A stretch of 61,703 nt of DNA, filler included, from Porpidia crustulata (taxonomy: Eukaryota), in assembly GCA_964255105.1 (NCBI GenBank). It is 8 parts of 8 records of this genome, joined end to end, with 100 filler letters (N's around TTAATTAATTAA, not from the genome) between each part and the next. Parts side by side here need not be neighbours in the genome. Positions count along the whole stretch, not along the records: positions 38,659 to 46,277 come from CAXUWE010001276.1; 7 more parts are not named here. One strand, written 5' to 3'. The position numbers and the translations under genes were made by a program. Within the stretch, counting starts at the first letter, position 1. Each line of letters starts with the position of its first letter. The notes beneath the pieces are model-generated. The model had not been told where the DNA came from. It was given only the letters and a program-made list of their open reading frames with translations, and did no database searches. Positions 28,028-46,277 of the stretch are shown one piece after another.

Positions 28028-30271
28028 TCAAGTAGGGGTCTTATGCACCAGGTCTGCGTGGTTCTGCGAATGCACAGTGCTTCCCAAATCGACGTGGCAC
28101 CTCGGATGAGGGCACGCAATCCGCTGACCGGCCGGGTGATGGCGAAGGTGTTTGCGATGAAAGTGCTTTTTCAGGTCGCCGCGGCTGTGGAAGGACTTCA
28201 GGCGGGTCTCGGTGGGCAATGCTTCACAACCGAGACAAAAGATGCATTGAGTGGCTTCGCATTCGATAGGGATGGAGTCGGAAAGACTCGGCAGATGGAG
28301 GACCGCTGGCCGTGTCAGATCCCGTTCAGGCTGGGAATCCGAAGCGGAAGGTTTCAGGCGCCGTGTACGCTTGCCTTCCTGCAAGCGGCAGAGTGCTGTT
28401 AAAGCATTGATCGCTTCCACCCGCCGTCTGCACTCTTCTTCGGGAGACGAAGTCGCAAAAGTGAAGATCGCGTCAATGACCCGGACACGCTCAACGAAGA
28501 CGTAATCCTCTGCCTTCGCCTTTTCCAGTTCTGCCGACGGCAGTCCTTTCAGTTGTCGCTGGATGTCGATCACCGGCTGCTCCCTTTTATACCTCGCTTT
28601 GACCTCTTGTAAGAGAGCCTCCTCACGCCGCCGTTTCATGTTGCGATGGGCGTGGTACGTATTTTGGTACTCGTCGTACACCGGCGTCCCCTTCATGCTC
28701 ACGACGGATCCGTGTTTCTCTCTGATGAACTTTGAAAGCGTCTTCTGCCTCCGGCGAAGGAGCCTCACCTCCGGGTGGCGATCGACTTCTGCTCGTTGGG
28801 CAGCATCGAGCTTGCGAGGCCGTCGTCGATCGATGGTGCGACTCATCCCACTGGCCAGTCGCATCAACGCGGTTTGCGGCTCCAGGCCACGGTAGGCGGC
28901 TCCCGTATCACCTGTAATATACCTCGAGAGATAGCTTTTTAAGAACACAGTGGAGTTGTGATGTTGCAAAATCAGATTCCGTTGCGATTCGCTGATGAAG
29001 CCTGTGCACGATTCAGCGAAAATATCGCAGGGAGGTCAAGGGTGACTACTCACTGCTGTTGTCGAGGGCTTCGCCACTGCCGCGCCGAAAGGTATGTGGA
29101 CCGGTGGGAAGCTCCATGCCGGTGACACTCCCAAGAGTGACCATCCGCGAGCGGAGAGTACTGTCGGGCAGAGCTTCGTCGTCGGAAATTTGAACCCCGT
29201 TCACGGTTGGTTTGGATCGGCGGAAGAGGGGAACACGTTGCATGGTTTCCTTAAGAGGCACTGGCAACTGTTTCTGTCCAGAGGGGATCCGAAGGCGGAA
29301 CAACTGTTCGGGAGAAGTTAACTCGGGCGCGGCGAAGGCCTGATCGGTAAAGATCAGAGTAAGCAAGTTCACGTGAGGACAAAGCAGCAAGCAAGGTTCG
29401 TTAGGTACGTCAGGAATCCCGAACTCATTCCCAAAATAATTGTGAGCCGCCCAGCCAAACGGTCCGTCCCCACGAAGGGGGCGCAAAAGGGGACACGGAC
29501 GTCTCTTTCTCGCCCAGGTAGCCCTTGGTATTTTTGAATGCGATTTCAATCAGCCTTCGAGGAAGTTCCCCTCCCTTCGGATCGGGAAGCAAGGTGATTT
29601 TGATGTCTTCGTAGCGAACACCCAAAAGAGCAGCAGGCCGGTTGCCCGTGATCCCTGCCAACTGCATGATCAACGCCAGCTGTACACGGTGCCGCTCGTG
29701 ATCAAAGGCGATCTCCAACGGAGAGGAACAATGTCTTCAAGAGCTCGAACTCGTCCTCGGCCCGCATGATGGGCTTCTTCTTCTCCTCCGTTCTTAATCC
29801 ATGCTTCAGAGCCAGCCGTTGTCTCACCTGATACCCGTTAGCCGAGAAGAAATGGCGTTGAGCCACGTACCCCGTGCATCTGGCTCTTGATGAGCGGGTC
29901 GATCTCGAGACAGCCCGTCTCTTTCTTTCGCACCAGGCAAAACACATTCCAGTATGTTTGCAGGGTACTGGCCGCGCCCAGCCGATCCTTGCGAACGGAG
30001 AGTAGCCAGTCAAAGAAGACGAAGAGAACGTTGATGGAAATGCCCTTCAGAGCCATGACAGGCTCCTTCCCAGTGAATTCGCAATATCTGCCGAACTTGA
30101 TCAGACTTCGCCCATCCTCTGATCGACAGCACGAACATCTCCTTACCGATACCAAAGGTTCTTGATCCAGCTCTGCAGATCCTCGCTGCTATCTTTGTAG
30201 ACTCGTTGGGTGAGTGTCAAAACGTCCAACTCGACTTCCATTTGCTTGTAGTATTCTGCCGAGAGTTCCAT
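28028..30271 (-). mobile_element. Starship captain: DUF3435 tyrosine recombinase with C-terminal Cys/His zinc-finger region, apparently disrupted
   Basis: Exons approx. 30271-30147, 30087-29871, 29827-29501, 29430-29053 and 29002-28028 give AEYYKQME...LWYRYC, LQTYWNVFCLV, HRVQLALIMQLAGITGNRPAALL, TKGYLG, LLCPHVNLL, HTFRRGSGEALD, QRNLILQH, YLSRYI, GMSRTIDRRRPRKL, QCIFCLG and CPHPRC. Candidate R-K-HxxR-H-Y catalytic residues are present. Frameshift near 29720. Confidence 0.92.
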
Positions 30272-38658: not shown

Positions 38659-39725
38659 AGCCACTTCCTACTTTGTAGTTGCTATTGCCTTCTTATAAGT
38701 TTAAACGAAAACGTGTAGTCAGCCTGTTTTAAATGCTGATCGGAGGAGCTGGTTATAGCTCCTCTGACCGCCCACCATGTTATCTTCTGCTCTTGCCCTC
38801 TTTCTCTTTCGCTTTTATTCTTTCCCTTTCGCTCTTCTTCTTTCCTTTGACTTCTAAATGCCCTGCGGCCTGCAGCAACCCGTCAGTGTACCAAAAACGC
38901 CATTGTGTACGTTGTCATCTCATATCCGCTTGTTAGCACCTAACGTCGCCAGGCCGTCGCTCAGACGTGGGCCAACCGGTTACCAGTTGCAAGAGTATTT
39001 GTGACAGTGTGGGATAACACGGGATTAAAAACAAAATCGGGGCTATAACGGAAACCTGTTAAATACATATAGAAATTTAATTATTAACGAATTGAAAAGC
39101 AAATATGTTTTTTTATATAAAAATATTACGTCATAAATGTTTTATAAATAAAAAAATTACGAAGTTGTGGCGTTGTTAAACCACAACTCCTTTTGTGGCG
39201 GAGACCCAGCTACTAGCAATGGTCTAGCAGGCCTACCGCCCTAAGCCCTTACCAACCCTCTTTTGATCAAAATTATCCTCCCTGCGCTCAATAATCAACA
39301 AATATCATCAAGTATGCCTCGAAAATTTAAGTCGGGTACATGGAGGATGTTAATAGATTACTGGGTGCCGTGGACTGAACACGATAACACGCCAGCCACG
39401 ATAAGCGTAGAGGTGTTTGAGGGCAGGTAATTGTTTAAGCAGTGCATGAGGGAGGAGAAAGCAGTGGGTAAAACGACGAGTAAGGTGGTGTTGGATAGTG
39501 GGATGATTGAGGGGACGGAGACGGAGGAGAATTTTTGGGAGGGTGCAATGTTGGCTGCAGCGCATCAAACTAGCTGCGGAAGATCCCTCGGGCTGAACAA
39601 ACATCCTTGAAAATGATGCTCAGTTGCAACTATCGACGGCTCCATTGACGATTGATGGTTACCGTGAACATGCAGCTGGATCATCAAACCGCCTTGTGAC
39701 GTGGAGCTCATACTCTTAAAGGTCC

Positions 39726-40268
39726 ATGCCGGTAACCGCGCAAGCCTTGACCACTAACACGGACGGATACATCATCACATTGCCGTATGTTCGCAGCACA
39801 GCAACGTATACAACCCTTCTAACTTTGAGTAAATCAACACCGACTGCGGAAGCTGTCACTTCATCCGATCACCACCATGGGCTTTCATCCGCATCAATCG
39901 CTGGTGCCGTTATCGGCTCCGTCATTGGCGTCGCAGTCCTGTTGTTACTGCTCTACTTCTGCTGCTTCAGAGATTATGATACCTATGAGGACTCCCCTAG
40001 CAACAGCACCACATCGGACGGAGGAGGTCGACACGAAATGAAAAAGTCCACGACCAAGACTTTCCCAGGCGCAACGATGGTCAAGAATAAGGGAGGGGGA
40101 AAAGTCGGACTTGCCGACGACAGCGGCAATGCAGTCGCATGGGTTCGGAAACCTCGACCAAAACATAAAGCGCCATTGAATCAACCAAGGTCTAGTACTC
40201 GGTCGAGAGGACCAGGTCGAAGGCATCCTATTGAGGCTGTCGAAGGCTTGGACTACCCTGGAAACTAA
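39726..40268 (+). CDS. Small single-pass membrane protein (Thr/Ser-rich N-terminus, TM helix, basic tail)
   Basis: 180-aa ORF. GLSSASIAGAVIGSVIGVAVLLLLLYFCC is a Mid2/SKG6-type TM helix with juxtamembrane cysteines. Confidence 0.7.
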   Translation: MPVTAQALTTNTDGYIITLPYVRSTATYTTLLTLSKSTPTAEAVTSSDHHHGLSSASIAGAVIGSVIGVAVLLLLLYFCCFRDYDTYEDSPSNSTTSDGGGRHEMKKSTTKTFPGATMVKNKGGGKVGLADDSGNAVAWVRKPRPKHKAPLNQPRSSTRSRGPGRRHPIEAVEGLDYPGN

Positions 40269-40649
40269 CTAGGCATGGCTGTCTTACAACTCATCCCCTC
40301 CTCGCGTACAATACCAGCAGTAACTTTCACCTTTTCTTGAGACGGACAACTTCGTTTCCTCCAGATTGAAGTTGACGCCAACGTAACGATTGGCTATGTA
40401 TCTGTTCCCCACCAATTGGCTGTGCGGGCCGCTTATTACAAGGCAGTGCATGAGCTAAGCCAAACCCACAATCAGCCTCACGGAAAGCCGCTGCTCATCT
40501 CTAATTTCAAGTAGAATAAGGCGAAGGTCGACTGAGACCGTGGAAACCCTTCCATCGAAGATATTAAATGCTCTATCCGCAGCTGGAAAGTTGCCATATC
40601 GAAGCGCAGTTTTCTCTCATCCTTCAGGATAGTCTTCCCAATTGCAAAA

Positions 40650-41495
40650 ATGGGAAAATCCTATCTCCTGGCCCCAACGCGCGATAATCCCCCCAACGGC
40701 CCTATCGCCCTCGGCAATATCATTGCCTCCCCCTCCGCGCCCGAAGACCGCCTAAATCCCACCCCAACCCTTCTGAATCTCCCCATCCACGAGTCCTACC
40801 AAACGAATTTCTTATCAGAAGTGAGCCGGTACAAAGCCGGCAAGATCGGAATATGGACGAGTTTCCTCCAATCCCTTGGCATCGGAATCGACCTCAGCAT
40901 CAACTATGAGATTGCGAATACTGAGAAATTCGAGTTTGAAAGTTTGGAAACTAGGTTTTTCACTCCGGATAGGCAATTTGTGGAGAGGTCAATGGAGGGC
41001 GATGACGTGCAGGAATTTATTAAGAAGAGTAAATTTAAGGCTAATGTGTATATGATCATTGGAATCAAGATCGCGAGGGGCGCGTCTGTGACGAGCACGA
41101 AGCTAAGGGAGAAGGGTTTGCATGTGCAATTTGGGGTTGATGCGACGCCAATGGGCGTGCCGCTGAGTATTGGCCCGAATGTTGAGGTTGAGGGTGGACC
41201 GAGGGAGAGTACGGCTTTTGAGAGCGCGGAGGGCTTTGTATTTGCATATAGGTTGAGGGAGGTATTTTATTCCAGGAAGCAGGGTTTGGTCATTCGTGAG
41301 TATAACAAGGGCGCTATATTTGGGATCGATGGTGGGAGTAAGTTTGAGGCGGAGGTTGGGGGGTAGGAGGTAGGTAAGGTTGATATACTGGGGATAGCTG
41401 AAGAGGATGTTGGAGGTGAGGATTTGGATTTGGATGGTGAGGAGGTTGCGGATGACGATGACGAGGTTTGTGAGAGTGTAAGTTTGAGCGCATGA
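40650..41495 (+). CDS. Fungal gasdermin (HET-Q1/RCD-1 family). ORF stops at TAG 41364-41366 (238 aa); the frame continues to TGA 41493-41495 (281 codons)
   Basis: Family hallmarks: YLLAPTRDNPPNGPIALGNII, GIWTSFLQ, FESLETRFFTP, VYMIIGIKIARGA, GVPLSIGPNVE, FVFAYRLREV and YNKGAIF. An acidic tail ending DDDDEVCESV lies beyond the TAG. An S8 protease gene is adjacent. Confidence 0.87.
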
Positions 41496-41781
41496 TCTGC
41501 GATTTATGCCTTGTTGGACAAGCTGCTTCCACGCTTGTTATGTTTGATGGTCGACGATCTTGTTTAAACTTGTTTGCTTCAGGCTCTCATCTCATACAGT
41601 CAAGCTTGGAAGATAGATATCGATGAGGTCATGACAATCATATGTACATAAATATATACCGCTGTATCGTATGATGAAGGAACGCTTGCTCAAGCGCATG
41701 ACAGAAAGGCAGTGAATATCACTCCATGCAATGCCACAAGCCTGGATCGGCACCACATCCCCACCGGTGGCTGAAAAATAC

Positions 41782-44235
41782 TTAGCCTGGATCATCTTCC
41801 AGGCCAAACGCGCTGTCAAGGACATCAGATATACGGGAAGCGATACGAGTGACGGAGTCTTTGCCCATTCGCTGGTCCAGCAATTTCCAAGGAACGATAT
41901 TCTTATACCCGTCCTTCTCCTCACCCATGGCGGCTAGAACTTCCCTCATGCCTTCCATGGTTTTTAGTCGCGCACGGTGGGTGATTTTGATTAACGGTAT
42001 CTTGGAGAATTCCAGGATTAGAGCGGCGATAGCAGCAGCAATTGGCGTTGCTGTCGACGTCCCCCACTGACGTTTTTCCGGGCCTTTCTTCAAGTCTTTA
42101 GGCCAGGCAGAAAGTACAGCTTCACCCAGAGCGGAAAAGTTGTGGCTCAGAGCGACAGCTGGAGGATTGTATTTTGATCTTGCGCCATTACCATCTGCGG
42201 AGTTGATGCAGATGACTTTGAGCATCGCCGAGGCGGGAAAGGCGATTTTGTCATTCGCACCATGGTTCGCAGCAGCAGCAAACATGATGATGTTCTTGCT
42301 AGAAGCGTAGTCGATGGCTTTTTCCATACTTAGATACCTGCGCGGGAAGCCGAAGGACATGGTGATGATGTCGACTTTCCACTTGTCCGCTGCATGCATG
42401 ATGGCCTGCATGGGCTTGATCAGCTGGAAAGGGAATGTGATGGATGACTTCAAACCTGAGAAACATTTTCCGGTTCCAACGTGTCTTTATAGTCTTTGAC
42501 CACTCGGGCGACATAAATCTGCGCTTCTGGCGCGACTCTCATTAGCAATGCTGCAGCATGCGATCCATGACCGCAGGTGTCTTTGTCGCCGTCTTCTACA
42601 GTCCAGCTCTTTACCTCCTTGCCGCGCTTCTCCCACTGCTGTTTAAGATCAGGATGGCTTAGGTCTATCCCGGTATCTAGGATGGCGATCTTGACTCTTC
42701 TCATGAGTTCTTTTCGATGAGGCGCAAGTAGTCCTTGTGTGTACGCCTCCAGACGCTGAAACCAAGCGTCTGCCACTTTGGCGCTGCTTGAACAAGTGTC
42801 ATCATGAGAGAATTAGACATTTGGTTCTTATAACGTACCTTGGCAAATCTTCGACTCCTCTATGCGCGTCACAGAGATTGCTATAGATGTTAAGCTCTTT
42901 CAGTAGATCCCGTACTTCCACCGGCTCTTTTGGCTTCTTGGCGCGCTCACCCGTCTTTATTGGACCTGTCTTTGGTAAATTAGAAACGGACTTGGAAGCC
43001 TTGAGCTTTGAGGGTACAGATTCAGGTGACTGGTCGTCATTGGTTTCTGCTGGCTCTCTTGGATGTGGCCCAGCTGATGACGCTCGTATCGCGATGTCAT
43101 TGGGCACGGGGAGCCGTCCTTTGTCATAAGAGATTTTTCTCTGGTTGCGGTCATGGTTGCTCTTCGAACCTTGGTTGGTAGTTTCGGGTGAAGAGGATGA
43201 CCGGTCGATAATCGTGCTCCCACGTTTTGCTTGCTTATGCCCTTGCTCTTCCTTTGGCGTTGTGCGTGATTCGTTGTCTGATTTTGATCTGTTTTGCCGT
43301 GACGCAGCCTTTTTTGCGGAGTCCACTCTCACTCTGAAATGGGTGCTGCGATTTGGAAGAGCTTCATGGCCAGCGGTATCATCCTTTGCCCTCTTATCCT
43401 TCTGATGGTCTATGGGCTTCCCATGTGTAGTCGTTGTCACATGGCTTTCTGCATTCTTAGTATCCTTTTGCTCAAGATTGCGTTTTGTCTTCCTCTTCTC
43501 CCATTCAAGCTCATTTTGCTTATCAAGTGCTTTGGTGATCTTTCTACAAAGCTCTTCGCTAGTGGCGAATTGAGGATCGTCTTTACCTTGCGCTCTTAGG
43601 ACGTTAATGTTGCCCAGCACGAGTGACTTGGCTTCCCTAAGGCGATCGAGGTGAAAGAGATTTGTCGCGAGGTTGTGTTTGGTCGCAATCAGGTCAACGT
43701 CCGTTAAGGGCTGCTTCTTACGCTGCCCAAGATTTTCTCTATTCAGTTTCTCTGCTTCATCGTACAGGTTGAGCTCTTCAAGAGTAGCAGCGAGGTTGTG
43801 CCGACTGGAAAGCGTGTCTTCATTATCTTTTCCCAGCGTGACTTCTCTTGTCTTAAGCGTCCTCCGATCTAGCTCTGCGGCTTCTTTGTAGCGACCCAGT
43901 CTATACAGATTGTACGCAAGATTGTGTTGAATCTCAAGCGTCTCAGGATGTTCTTCTCCGTACTTCCTCCTCCTCATATGTAGAGTCTGCTCGTTAAGGG
44001 TTGCTGCGTCGTCGTATTTTCCAAGCTCGTGCAAGGTGAAAGCAAGGATATCTTGATCGTCAAGCGTCACAGGATCCTTGGGGCCAAGGGTTGTTTTGGC
44101 CCATGCAAAGTTTTCTTTAAATAATATGGACGCTTGGCCGTATTCGCTGCCCTCGAGATGCTTACGAGCAAGGTCATCTTTCCTGTTATGCTCCCGAATA
44201 CCTTGATCGCGTATCCAAACGCTGTGCAGGGCCAT
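41782..44235 (-). CDS. TPR-repeat / S8 subtilisin-like serine protease fusion (~783 aa, 3 exons)
   Basis: Exons 44235-42839, 42786-42456 and 42405-41782 are joined in frame by 52- and 50-nt GT-AG introns. About four 42-aa TPR repeats (e.g. YGEEHPETLEIQHNLAYNLYRLGRYKEA), a charged low-complexity linker, the intact triad ILDTG / GHGSH / GTSTA and oxyanion AANHG. No signal peptide. Confidence 0.9.
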
Positions 44236-44468
44236 GCGAGCCAGTTGTCTGGCATAATAGACCTGAATACATAAAGCTCAAAAAGGGACCGAATAAATTT
44301 TAGAAAGTAAAGCTTCGTCGCCAGAAATCAGCATACTAAATGTGCCAAAGGAAGGCTGAGGCCTCCATGACTCGAGAAAACTCCGCGAGTATTCCCACAA
44401 GCCCCTGCAACTTTCGGGGTGCCCCGCCAATTGGCTTATCGCGGGGGCTTACCGTAGATTTCATGCTA

Positions 44469-44725
44469 CAATAGAGTTGGTTTTTAGTCTAGACCCATTA
44501 GGCTAGTCATCACACTCCGACAAAAAACATGCCCTATTGTACCTGCTATGGCGGAACAGCCATAGCAGCTGGGAGAAAATTGTATACAGCGAAGATATAG
44601 AGAATCAATAGCATTACAGACACTGAATTTGAAGATTTTTCATCAGAGCTTCTGTTGTTGATATACGGAGCGTTTGGTAATGCCCCATATTTTGCGATGG
44701 TCTAGACTAAAAACCAGCCTTACTG
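44469..44725. mobile_element. MITE (Tc1/mariner-like, TA target duplication), 257 bp
   Basis: TA|CAATAGAGTTGGTTTTTAGTCTAGACC ... GGTCTAGACTAAAAACCAGCCTTACTG|TA: ~27-bp imperfect TIRs flanked by TA, with no ORF. Confidence 0.75.
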
Positions 44726-45037
44726 TAGTCATGGCTCGTTGGCCTGTGGGGGCGAAGGCACAATCTCAATGCAACTTCAGACCCTCTCTTCAAATACCAT
44801 GCAAGCTATCAATTCCAGTGATTTTCCGGTTCGGCGCAAATAAAGTTGATTTTACTTGGTTTTAGAGTAATGAACAACTTCAGCAAAACTAAAAGCGTAT
44901 TCGGACTGGATAGCTACTTTGCTTAGCCAAACAAGCATAGACTATACGCTTTGATAAATTGGACCATTAGCTTTATTTGCTGTCCTTTTTCCTCCAGGGT
45001 TGCCTTGGTTTATGTAAAAGCGTCAATCCATAATCGG

Positions 45038-45875
45038 TGTCATAAACCGGACTTCACGTGACGTTCAAGGGACCTCATAGGGTTCGAGGAAGCTCTCTGA
45101 GGTTTGGCCCAATTGGGTTGAATCTTGAGTTATATTAGTATCAGAGCTGTGATCAGGGTGAAGTATGCAAAAGGGATAAGTCTTGTATTGACTTGCTAAG
45201 CTAAAGTGGCTCAATGATTTAGATTGACTACGGTTCTTCATTATGCAAGGGAGAACGAGGGTGTTTATATACACGACATTGCTCAGGATGTTCAGGATGC
45301 TCAGTGACTGATCATACTGAGCATACTGAGCATCAGTCCCGATGCTTGCCCTTCTGGGGTTGGCGTAATGCTAGCTCCCCATCATACTCAGGTGAACACT
45401 CTCTTAGGTTAGTGTGTCTTCGGGATTCCACCAATCCTAACATTCCAATCCTAACAACGGAACTCGTTGGCCTAAGGAAGGGGTTCAACATAGTACGCTA
45501 ACCCCACAAAAAGTTCTCCCTAGCACGCCTGCCCAAAAGGAGAGGCAGAAGAAGGTGACTAAGCAAGGGTGCCAAAGAAAGTAATCAGAGAGATCAGAGC
45601 GATCAGGCATAATCACTCTGATCAAGCTGATCACCTCAGATATATAAACACCCTCGTTCTTCCTTGCAAAGATGAAGAACCGTAGTCAACTTAAGTCACT
45701 AAGTCACTTTAGCTTAACAAGTCAATATAAGACTTATTTCTTTTGTATACTTCAATCTGATCGTAGCCTCGATACTAATATAATCTAAGATTCAACCCGA
45801 TTGGACCGAACCTCAGAGAGCTTTATCGAACCATATAAAGTCCCCTGAACGTTACGTGAAGTCCGGTTTATAACA
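45038..45875. mobile_element. 838-bp element with ~235-bp inverted arms (fold-back/MULE-like, or two inverted solo LTRs)
   Basis: 45038-45271 matches the reverse complement of 45642-45875 at roughly 80% by eye, mostly transitions. Termini are TGT...ACA. Confidence 0.8.
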
Positions 45876-46277
45876 CATGGTCTGATAGATTTCAGAAGAC
45901 CCTTTGAGGATTTGGCTAAGATCAATCGAATCAGCAGGGTATGGAGCAGAGATAGAAGGGAATTACATTGCAGAAGTGAGAACTCATTTACCCTGGTCTC
46001 TTTTATTTTAAGCTATACATCGAGATAACCGCTTTACTCCTAAAATTATACGAGGGAATCAATTAAGCAAAGAAATGAGTAGGGGGTAAAAAGGGATAGC
46101 ATTTAGGATGGCTAAAAGGAAGCTTTTAAGAATATAAGGACCTCAAGGAATTAAAAAACAACTAAGGCAACTCAAGCCGAGATAGAGGAAGCCCATTTCA
46201 GGCTCCCACGTGCTGCGCCCTGCACTGCCTCGTGCTCCCTCTCTGTTCCCTCAGCGCTCCCCCGCGCTCCCCCTGTG

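What the first reader, a model, noticed from the sequence alone, without database searches (positions are those of the whole stretch)
40650..44235. Two-gene cell-death module: gasdermin convergent with a TPR-sensor-S8 protease
Seen: a gasdermin-family gene (+) and a cytosolic subtilisin with an intact D/H/S triad (-) lie tail to tail, ~290 bp apart from the extended gasdermin stop, on a contig with transposon relics. Known: many fungal gasdermin genes cluster with S8 or caspase-like proteases, and in het-Q the protease cleaves the gasdermin to cause cell death. Inference: this is a self-contained immune or heterokaryon-incompatibility cassette in which the protease activates its neighbour.
Basis: partly seen in the sequence, partly recalled or inferred. 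Interest (0 to 1): 0.8.

Follow-up and report, generated by a model that had tools for sequence, protein, structure and literature searches.

The report
Fungal gasdermin-protease pair with truncated gasdermin
This is an ordinary example of a known fungal cell-suicide gene pair, a pore-forming gasdermin beside the sensor-protease that should switch it on, except that this copy of the gasdermin is cut short by an unverified stop codon and may be dead.

Summary
The pair is real and of a known kind. The + gene is a fungal gasdermin (RCD-1 and HET-Q1 hits; fold Z 16.0 to the RCD-1 pore). The - gene is a three-exon, 782-residue TPR-linker-S8 protease with an intact triad, 285 bp away, tail to tail. 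Of 78 related loci, 61 have an S8 neighbour. Clave et al. 2022 catalogued 1,187 gasdermin-S8 clusters, including a TPR-S8 relative of this protease. It removes the 42-residue acidic tail that relatives keep and ends the protein 14 residues after the predicted cleavage site. The lost tail is still 69% identical to the nearest relative's, so the stop is very recent or an assembly error. A second assembly of a near-identical sample disagrees at two bases within 25 nt of it, at about 5x depth. By analogy with HET-Q1(1-247), a real truncation is probably inert. Verdict: new member of a known cluster type; probably disabled in this copy (0.5) or intact and mis-assembled (0.35). It is not a het-Q-type incompatibility locus.

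The parts
40650..41366 (+). Gasdermin coding frame as assembled, 238 aa, ending at an in-frame TAG
   Evidence: PDB sequence hits RCD-1-1 E 8.6e-10, HET-Q1 pore E 7.3e-5; profile hits to E 1.3e-22
41310..41321 (+). G-A-I-F 221-224: predicted protease cleavage motif, cut after F224 (inferred equivalent of HET-Q1 L237-F238)
   Evidence: consensus KGALFG in 30 relatives, G221 nearly invariant; position within 2 residues of F238 counted from the alignment; inference
41364..41366 (+). In-frame TAG, codon 239; real nonsense change or assembly error, unresolved
   Evidence: low depth and nearby disagreement between assemblies
41367..41496 (+). 42 codons of the acidic inhibitory tail behind the stop, ending at TGA
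   Evidence: 29 of 42 identical to P0002, ungapped; modelled as three strands
41338..41397 (+). Candidate 60-nt in-frame intron spanning the TAG (GTAAGT donor, TAG acceptor, no CTRAY branch site); unproven
41497..41781 (.). 285-bp gap between the two convergent genes
42839..44235 (-). Protease exon 1: N-terminal TPR block and long low-complexity linker
   Evidence: Pfam TPR_12 E 5.9e-26, TPR_10 E 5.4e-25
43555..44202 (-). TPR block, residues 12-227, 42-residue repeats
   Evidence: 50% identical to P0037 87-304; HNLA motifs at 104, 146, 187; direct repeats 123-126 nt apart
42856..43488 (-). Linker, residues 250-460, basic and S/T/P-rich, probably disordered
   Evidence: 14% hydrophobic residues; pLDDT under 50 over most of the matching part of orthologue P0037
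42784..42838 (-). Intron 1, 55 nt, GTACGT...CAG, branch site present
   Evidence: the spliced product aligns across the joint with P0037
42456..42783 (-). Exon 2: pre-S8 helix, catalytic D502 (42677-42675) and H538 (42569-42567)
42406..42455 (-). Intron 2, 50 nt, GTTTGA...CAG, branch site present
41782..42405 (-). Exon 3: S8 domain with oxyanion N622 (42267-42265) and catalytic S692 (42057-42055)
   Evidence: Pfam Peptidase_S8 E 1.1e-13; subtilisin hits
44466..44728 (.). 263-bp element with 30-nt terminal inverted repeats (87%), 230 bp upstream of the protease ATG; MITE-like
   Evidence: no second copy found in the assembly
45037..45876 (.). 840-bp element with about 235-nt inverted arms, 85% alike, mismatches mostly transitions

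Best explanation
[quoted passage not shown] How the intact module works, inferred from HET-Q and Q1-6/Q2L-6: the cytosolic TPR-linker-S8 protein is held inactive until its TPR block meets an unknown non-self or danger signal. The S8 domain then cuts the gasdermin after F224 and removes about 57 residues of linker and acidic tail. The freed N-terminal domain oligomerises into membrane pores and kills the hyphal compartment. Shown here: the folds, the triad, the linkage. Inferred: sensing, cleavage, pore formation. In this copy a recent nonsense change at codon 239 most likely leaves a 238-residue protein without the tail, neither toxic alone nor properly activatable, so the module is switched off at the executioner while the protease stays intact.
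For: Gasdermin by sequence and fold (Foldseek E 9.7e-13; Z 16.0, rmsd 3.8 over 212 residues). Triad intact, and D, H and N are kept in 45 of 45 relatives, S in 42 of 45. S8 neighbour in 61 of 78 related loci, 28 of 32 with both flanks of 3 kb or more. Distances of the two genes correlate (Mantel r 0.74, 29 pairs). For a real stop: at one of the two disputed bases the window's residue (F232) matches the nearest relative, which favours the window's reading of this stretch. A similar linker truncation, a 1-nt insertion, occurs in L006 against L005. For inertness: HET-Q1(1-247) is neither toxic alone nor activated by HET-Q2, and toxicity needs the end at F238 almost exactly (PMC8851545).
Against: The stop sits in a 52% G stretch where the other assembly breaks and differs from the window at three bases, two listed (41339, 41343) and one not placed, at depth about 5. 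The tail shows no decay (29 of 42 identical against 152 of 224 for the body). 61 of 66 distinct loci read 70 or more residues past the FVFA motif, against 44 here. HET-Q1(1-261) is still activatable, so a partial tail need not be null. No cleavage or toxicity was measured. The Mantel correlation also follows from shared descent.
Confidence: 0.5

Rival explanations
1. Same cluster, fully intact: the TAG is a consensus error in a low-depth, G-rich stretch, and the true gene encodes 281 residues. The first reader's working cassette is then right.
For: Independent contigs of run X1 break here with a 9-nt overlap and differ at three bases in 40739-41393; the unlisted one must lie near a contig end, and the stop's first base is 30 letters from that end. 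Ungapped 281/281 alignment with P0002, tail 69% identical. Protease intact.
Against: The unlisted difference cannot be placed. The other assembly's change at 41343 would lose a match to P0002, so that contig end may itself be the faulty one. Truncated tails occur in 3 of 66 distinct loci, the window's included.
Confidence: 0.35
2. The stop is real and the tail-less protein is a functional allele: an RCD-1-like gasdermin activated by meeting another allele, or one half of a nascent allorecognition polymorphism.
For: The truncated protein ends 43 residues after the FVFA motif starts, close to RCD-1-1 (38) and RCD-1-2 (28), counted. RCD-1 lacks the repressor and is activated by heterodimerisation (PMC13475620 passages; PMC12881547). 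Both known gasdermin incompatibility systems are proposed to derive from such clusters.
Against: Only one gasdermin found in this assembly. Identity to RCD-1 is about 22%, against 54-66% to tailed, protease-linked relatives. A single recent change is unlikely to make a partner-specific switch. No allele data.
Confidence: 0.07
3. The stop is real but bypassed: a 60-nt in-frame intron (41338-41397) has arisen from coding sequence, or the TAG is read through, giving a protein that keeps most of its tail.
For: Consensus donor GTAAGT, TAG acceptor, length like the protease introns (50, 55 nt). 0 of 65 distinct relatives have such a donor-acceptor pair spanning the same position.
Against: No CTRAY branch site; the stretch is G-rich and aligns as coding sequence with relatives. 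Splicing would delete most of the first modelled tail strand, 244-253. Both listed differences of the other assembly fall inside this donor. The test was chosen after seeing the donor.
Confidence: 0.06
4. The two genes are chance neighbours and the protease has another substrate.
For: TPR was detected on the partner in only 7 of 78 loci, all divergent, none convergent as here.
Against: This is the only S8 match of its kind found in the 22.9-Mb assembly and it lies 285 bp from the only gasdermin found. 61 of 78 loci are linked. The closest named relatives of both genes are three locus tags apart in Lecanora helva.
Confidence: 0.02

Closest known systems
[quoted passage not shown] 2022, PMC8851545), e.g. 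TPR + Peptidase_S8 protein PVH73169.1 of Cadophora sp. DSE1049 in Dataset S2
   Same: Gasdermin adjacent to a multidomain S8 protease with N-terminal TPRs. P0055, from the same strain and with matching Pfam domains, is 42% identical to exon 3.
   Different: The gasdermin carries an in-frame stop. The nearest named relatives are lichen-forming fungi; the two Lecanoromycetes rows of Dataset S3 list 0 gasdermins.
Podospora anserina HET-Q1/HET-Q2
   Same: Homologous gasdermin (E 2.2e-13), similar full length (281 codons against 278), hydrophobic-Phe motif at the matching place, cytosolic S8 with D/H/S triad.
   Different: [quoted passage not shown] Here both genes are on one haplotype and the protease is 782 residues.
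Podospora anserina Q1-6/Q2L-6 (TPR-CHAT) cluster
   Same: Linked pair with N-terminal TPRs; the isolated protease domain cleaved the neighbour and caused barrage.
   Different: CHAT caspase-like protease there, S8 serine protease here.
Neurospora crassa RCD-1-1/RCD-1-2
   Same: Best sequence and fold hits in the PDB; the truncated product has a similar length past the FVFA motif.
   Different: RCD-1 needs two alleles and no protease. Here a protease is linked and the tail is still encoded behind the stop.

Membership tests
Fungal gasdermin (HET-Q1/RCD-1 family) | Sequence homology to RCD-1 and HET-Q1 | tested here: met
Fungal gasdermin (HET-Q1/RCD-1 family) | Gasdermin pore-domain fold | tested here: met
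   Model pLDDT 69.6; the top nine rows are all gasdermins, Z 16.0-8.8
Fungal gasdermin (HET-Q1/RCD-1 family) | Membrane pore formation and cell death | not testable with these tools
   needs expression
het-Q1/het-Q2-like cluster (Clave 2022) | Gasdermin gene within 10 kb of an S8 or CHAT protease gene | tested here: met
   285 bp; 61 of 78 related loci linked
het-Q1/het-Q2-like cluster (Clave 2022) | S8 domain with D/H/S triad | tested here: met
   D502, H538, S692
het-Q1/het-Q2-like cluster (Clave 2022) | Cytosolic protease: no signal peptide, no I9 propeptide, long N-terminal extension | tested here: met
   crude hydropathy check only; no I9 hit at E 0.1 in the three frames, TPR hits instead
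Working protease-activated gasdermin module | Short inhibitory C-terminal tail translated in frame | tested here: inconclusive
   tail encoded but behind a TAG; the stop is not verified
Working protease-activated gasdermin module | Cleavage of the gasdermin by the linked protease | not testable with these tools
   motif position inferred only
het-Q allorecognition locus (P. anserina type) | Gasdermin and protease are alternative idiomorphs in different strains | tested here: not met
   both genes on one contig
het-Q allorecognition locus (P. anserina type) | Protease reduced to a bare S8 domain | tested here: not met
   465 residues of TPR and linker precede the S8 exons
RCD-1-type allelic system | Two divergent tail-less alleles that kill on meeting, without protease | not testable with these tools
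   one copy found in the assembly; no population data
Fungal NLR | Central NACHT or NB-ARC domain | tested here: not met
   no such Pfam hit; the middle is low-complexity

The most novel reading that the evidence does not exclude
The stop is real and segregates in the population, so the locus is a snapshot of a linked sensor-protease/gasdermin cluster turning into an allorecognition system: a haplotype that is in effect protease-only (as het-Q2), or a tail-less gasdermin allele (as RCD-1), possibly with coding sequence being recruited as a new intron. It would be such an intermediate in a relative of lichen-forming fungi, a group with no gasdermin in the 2022 survey's two rows.
Probability: 0.12. 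Interest if true: 0.65.

Novelty: new member of a known kind. Interest (0 to 1): 0.3.

Why it matters
As a cluster it matters little: the type is published and common. It extends the type to relatives of lichen-forming fungi and supplies a compact TPR-S8 pair, with intact natural orthologues, for the open question of what activates these sensors. Activation by a TPR-bearing partner has been shown for a CHAT protease; I saw no such test for a TPR-S8 in the papers read. If the stop is real and polymorphic, it would let one test the proposal that incompatibility systems arise by breaking such clusters.

Tried and rejected
Pfam gave no family for the gasdermin; the call rests on PDB sequence and fold searches. 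No RNA holder listed, so expression and splicing were not tested. Run X2, a related strain, has contigs over parts of the protease and none over 39929-41706; at depth 2.5-6 with 20 of 30 bins covered this is not evidence that the gasdermin is absent there. X2's 16 listed differences in the protease exons give 13 changed and 2 silent codons, no stop; this does not depart from neutral expectation (P 0.13-0.24), and two X2 differences were not shown. Of eight GT-AG pairs of 40-120 nt spanning the TAG, none has a CTRAY branch site and three are in frame. No second gasdermin found in the assembly with two single-protein queries; a profile search was not possible there, so distant paralogues could be missed. 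No further copies of the two inverted-repeat elements were found, and no clear target-site duplication, so 'transposon' is a likeness only. A phrase search for TPR plus S8 rows in Dataset S2 returned nothing, so I have one example and no count. No complex was predicted: enzyme-substrate pairs are a poor case for it. Paper searches listed no study of gasdermins in lichen fungi or of truncated alleles in protease-linked clusters; the library lacks most subscription papers.

Full report
Verdict. The one feature particular to this copy is an in-frame stop in the gasdermin, which I could not verify. Interest 0.3; new member of a known kind.

Setting. The window is eight contigs joined by N spacers. 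The finding lies on one contig of 7,619 bp, window 38659-46277, G000:C1276, in a fragmented 22.9-Mb assembly of 2,447 contigs. Spliceosomal introns and the housekeeping genes on the other contigs mark it as fungal. The closest named relatives of both genes come from lichen-forming fungi (Cornicularia normoerica 59%, Lecanora helva 54% for the gasdermin; L. helva 58% for S8 exon 3).

The gasdermin. The frame from ATG 40650 reads 238 residues, TAG, 42 more residues, TGA at 41496. Pfam has no model for it. The 238 residues hit 5 PDB sequences at E up to 10, all RCD-1 or HET-Q1. A profile of 30 relatives hits 7, adding two bacterial gasdermins. A model of the frame read with X at the break has mean pLDDT 69.6; residues 212-240 score under 50, and the tail forms strands 244-253, 263-267 and 273-277. 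Foldseek ranks the RCD-1 pore first (E 9.7e-13). Against 48,161 chains, the nine rows with Z of 8 or more are all gasdermins, led by RCD-1 at Z 16.0, rmsd 3.8 over 212 residues.

The protease. Three exons (44235-42839, 42783-42456, 42405-41782) with GT-AG introns of 55 and 50 nt, each with a branch site, give one open frame of 782 residues. The intron-free orthologue P0037 aligns across both joints at 65% (residues 447-781) and over the TPR block at 50%. D502, H538, N622 and S692 are present; D, H and N are kept in 45 of 45 relatives and S in 42 of 45, with two gaps and one F. A model of P0037, not of the window's own protein, shows a confident TPR solenoid, a low-confidence linker of about 330 residues, one helix and the S8 fold. 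There is no NACHT or NB-ARC hit, so it is not an NLR.

Linkage. Of 78 metagenome loci with a gasdermin relative, 61 have an S8 relative in the DNA held: 39 convergent, 13 divergent, 9 tandem, 17 none; 28 of the 32 with 3 kb on both sides are linked. These counts include near-duplicate loci. TPR was detected on the partner in 7 of 78, all divergent, so the convergent TPR-S8 layout here was not matched among them. After keeping 42 pairs long enough to align and removing those over 80% alike, 29 remained; gasdermin and S8 distances correlate at r 0.74, 0 of 2,000 permutations as high. Shared descent alone gives such a correlation; it shows co-inheritance, not specificity. Annotated genomes agree: L. 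helva ACLMJK_002771 and _002774, Monosporascus DL769_004432 and _004433. In this assembly the only S8 match to P0037 is this gene and the only gasdermin found is its neighbour.

What is known. Clave et al. 2022 (PMC8851545; I read parts 1-5 of 8 of the text, the first part of Dataset S2 and term searches in Datasets S1-S3; the SI appendix was too large to open, so Figs S5-S6 are known from the text only) found 1,187 of 1,884 fungal gasdermins clustered with an S8 gene. Their Dataset S2 lists PVH73169.1 of Cadophora sp. DSE1049 as TPR plus Peptidase_S8, matching P0055 in my hit list by strain and domains. They showed cleavage of HET-Q1 after F238, and activation of Q1-6 by the isolated CHAT domain of a TPR-CHAT neighbour. 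A 2025 review (PMC12881547; passages and section 20) calls the activating stimuli a major open question. PMC13475620 (abstract and passages) places the cut at F238-A239 and models the tail as inhibitory. PMC11138114 (passages) adds a CHAT idiomorph in Aspergillus fumigatus. PMC13733946 held 2,520 characters and none of my terms. Other papers were seen as listings only.

Cleavage site. Relatives share the consensus KGALFG; the window has KGAIFG with F224. Counting on from the alignment to the HET-Q1 pore chain, and taking a numbering offset of 6 from the Y21 named, HET-Q1 F238 falls within two residues of F224. This is inference.

The stop. Close full-length relatives are 279-292 residues. From 79 loci including the window's, 2 ran off the contig and 11 were duplicates; of the 66 left, 61 read 70 or more residues from the FVFA motif to the stop (median 82), against 44 here, 41 in L006 and 49 in a degraded L079. 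L006 has a 1-nt insertion against L005 at a similar place; it too could be a sequencing error. The tail behind the stop is 29 of 42 identical to P0002, the body 152 of 224, with no gaps, so it has not decayed. Run X1 holds 97% of the sampled words and may be the source sample, so it is not independent support. Its contigs match the window without a difference over 2,066 and 4,893 nt, but the 655-nt contig over the gasdermin (depth 5.1) differs at three bases, two listed at 41339 and 41343 and one not placed, and ends at 41393. The stretch is 52% G. One of the listed changes would lose a residue shared with P0002, which favours the window there. I put the stop at about 0.63 real and 0.35 error.

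If real. The protein keeps 14 residues after F224 and none of the modelled tail strands. HET-Q1(1-247), nine residues past the site, was not toxic and gave no barrage with HET-Q2; 1-261 was not toxic but activatable; 1-238 was toxic and 1-239 only slightly. The nearest analogue is the inert form. Nonsense-mediated decay could lower it further (recalled, not tested). Two escapes remain. A 60-nt in-frame candidate intron with a consensus donor spans the stop, and 0 of 65 relatives have such a pair at that position; but it lacks a CTRAY branch site and would delete most of a tail strand. And the truncated length is close to that of RCD-1-1, which works without a tail; nothing here shows a partner allele.

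Flanks. Upstream of the protease lie a 263-bp element with 30-nt inverted ends and an 840-bp element with arms 85% alike; 29 of 32 arm mismatches are transitions. The contig's last 370 bp have six matches elsewhere in the assembly. These are plausible non-autonomous relics, no more.

Shown: both families, the triad, the gene model, the linkage, the stop in this assembly. Inferred: sensing by TPR, the cut after F224, pore formation, the null state. Not met: the defining features of a het-Q-type incompatibility locus.

Noticed in passing
window 39720-40268 (+): 182-codon frame 380 bp upstream of the gasdermin: Ser/Thr-rich stretch, one hydrophobic segment, basic tail; Mid2-like hit just under cut-off (E 1.6e-4). 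Start not defined.
   Followed up: partly
window 28028-29549 (-), a different contig: DUF3435 gene split over two frames (E 4e-55 and 8.5e-42); looks like a decayed mobile element (likeness recalled).
   Followed up: partly
L006:6580-6900: Gasdermin 95% identical to L005 with a 1-nt insertion that ends the frame 11 residues after the motif; TPR-S8 neighbour present. A parallel truncation or an error.
   Followed up: partly
L040, L043, L045, L046, L049, L050, L069, L074: A subgroup with a short tail (70-73 residues from the FVFA motif) and a G-A-F-M/L motif, all with a convergent S8.
   Followed up: no
window 41877-43931, run X2: A related strain differs at 15 protease codons, 13 of them changing the residue, most in the linker; not significant against neutral expectation.
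   Followed up: partly
P0037 615-649 and window residues 447-490: A conserved segment and helix just before the S8 domain (L615, D617, W634, L638; helix 630-649) could act as an internal brake in place of a propeptide; untested.
   Followed up: no
P0007 and P0086/P0087: A gasdermin relative and two fragments from the cluster of TPR-S8 orthologue P0037 share the same longest-contig length, 13,292, suggesting one contig.
   Followed up: no
G000 contigs C1893, C363, C1830, C1112, C153, C32: Other TPR-repeat genes of the same repeat type, some in open frames of 600-1,100 codons; possible NLR-like genes.
   Followed up: no
window 886-60013, other contigs: Ordinary genes by Pfam: nucleoporin, CLC channel, MFS transporter, PWWP, RNA cyclase-like, Ras, MEKK4-like kinase, VLRF1, SH3, F-box.
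   Followed up: yes
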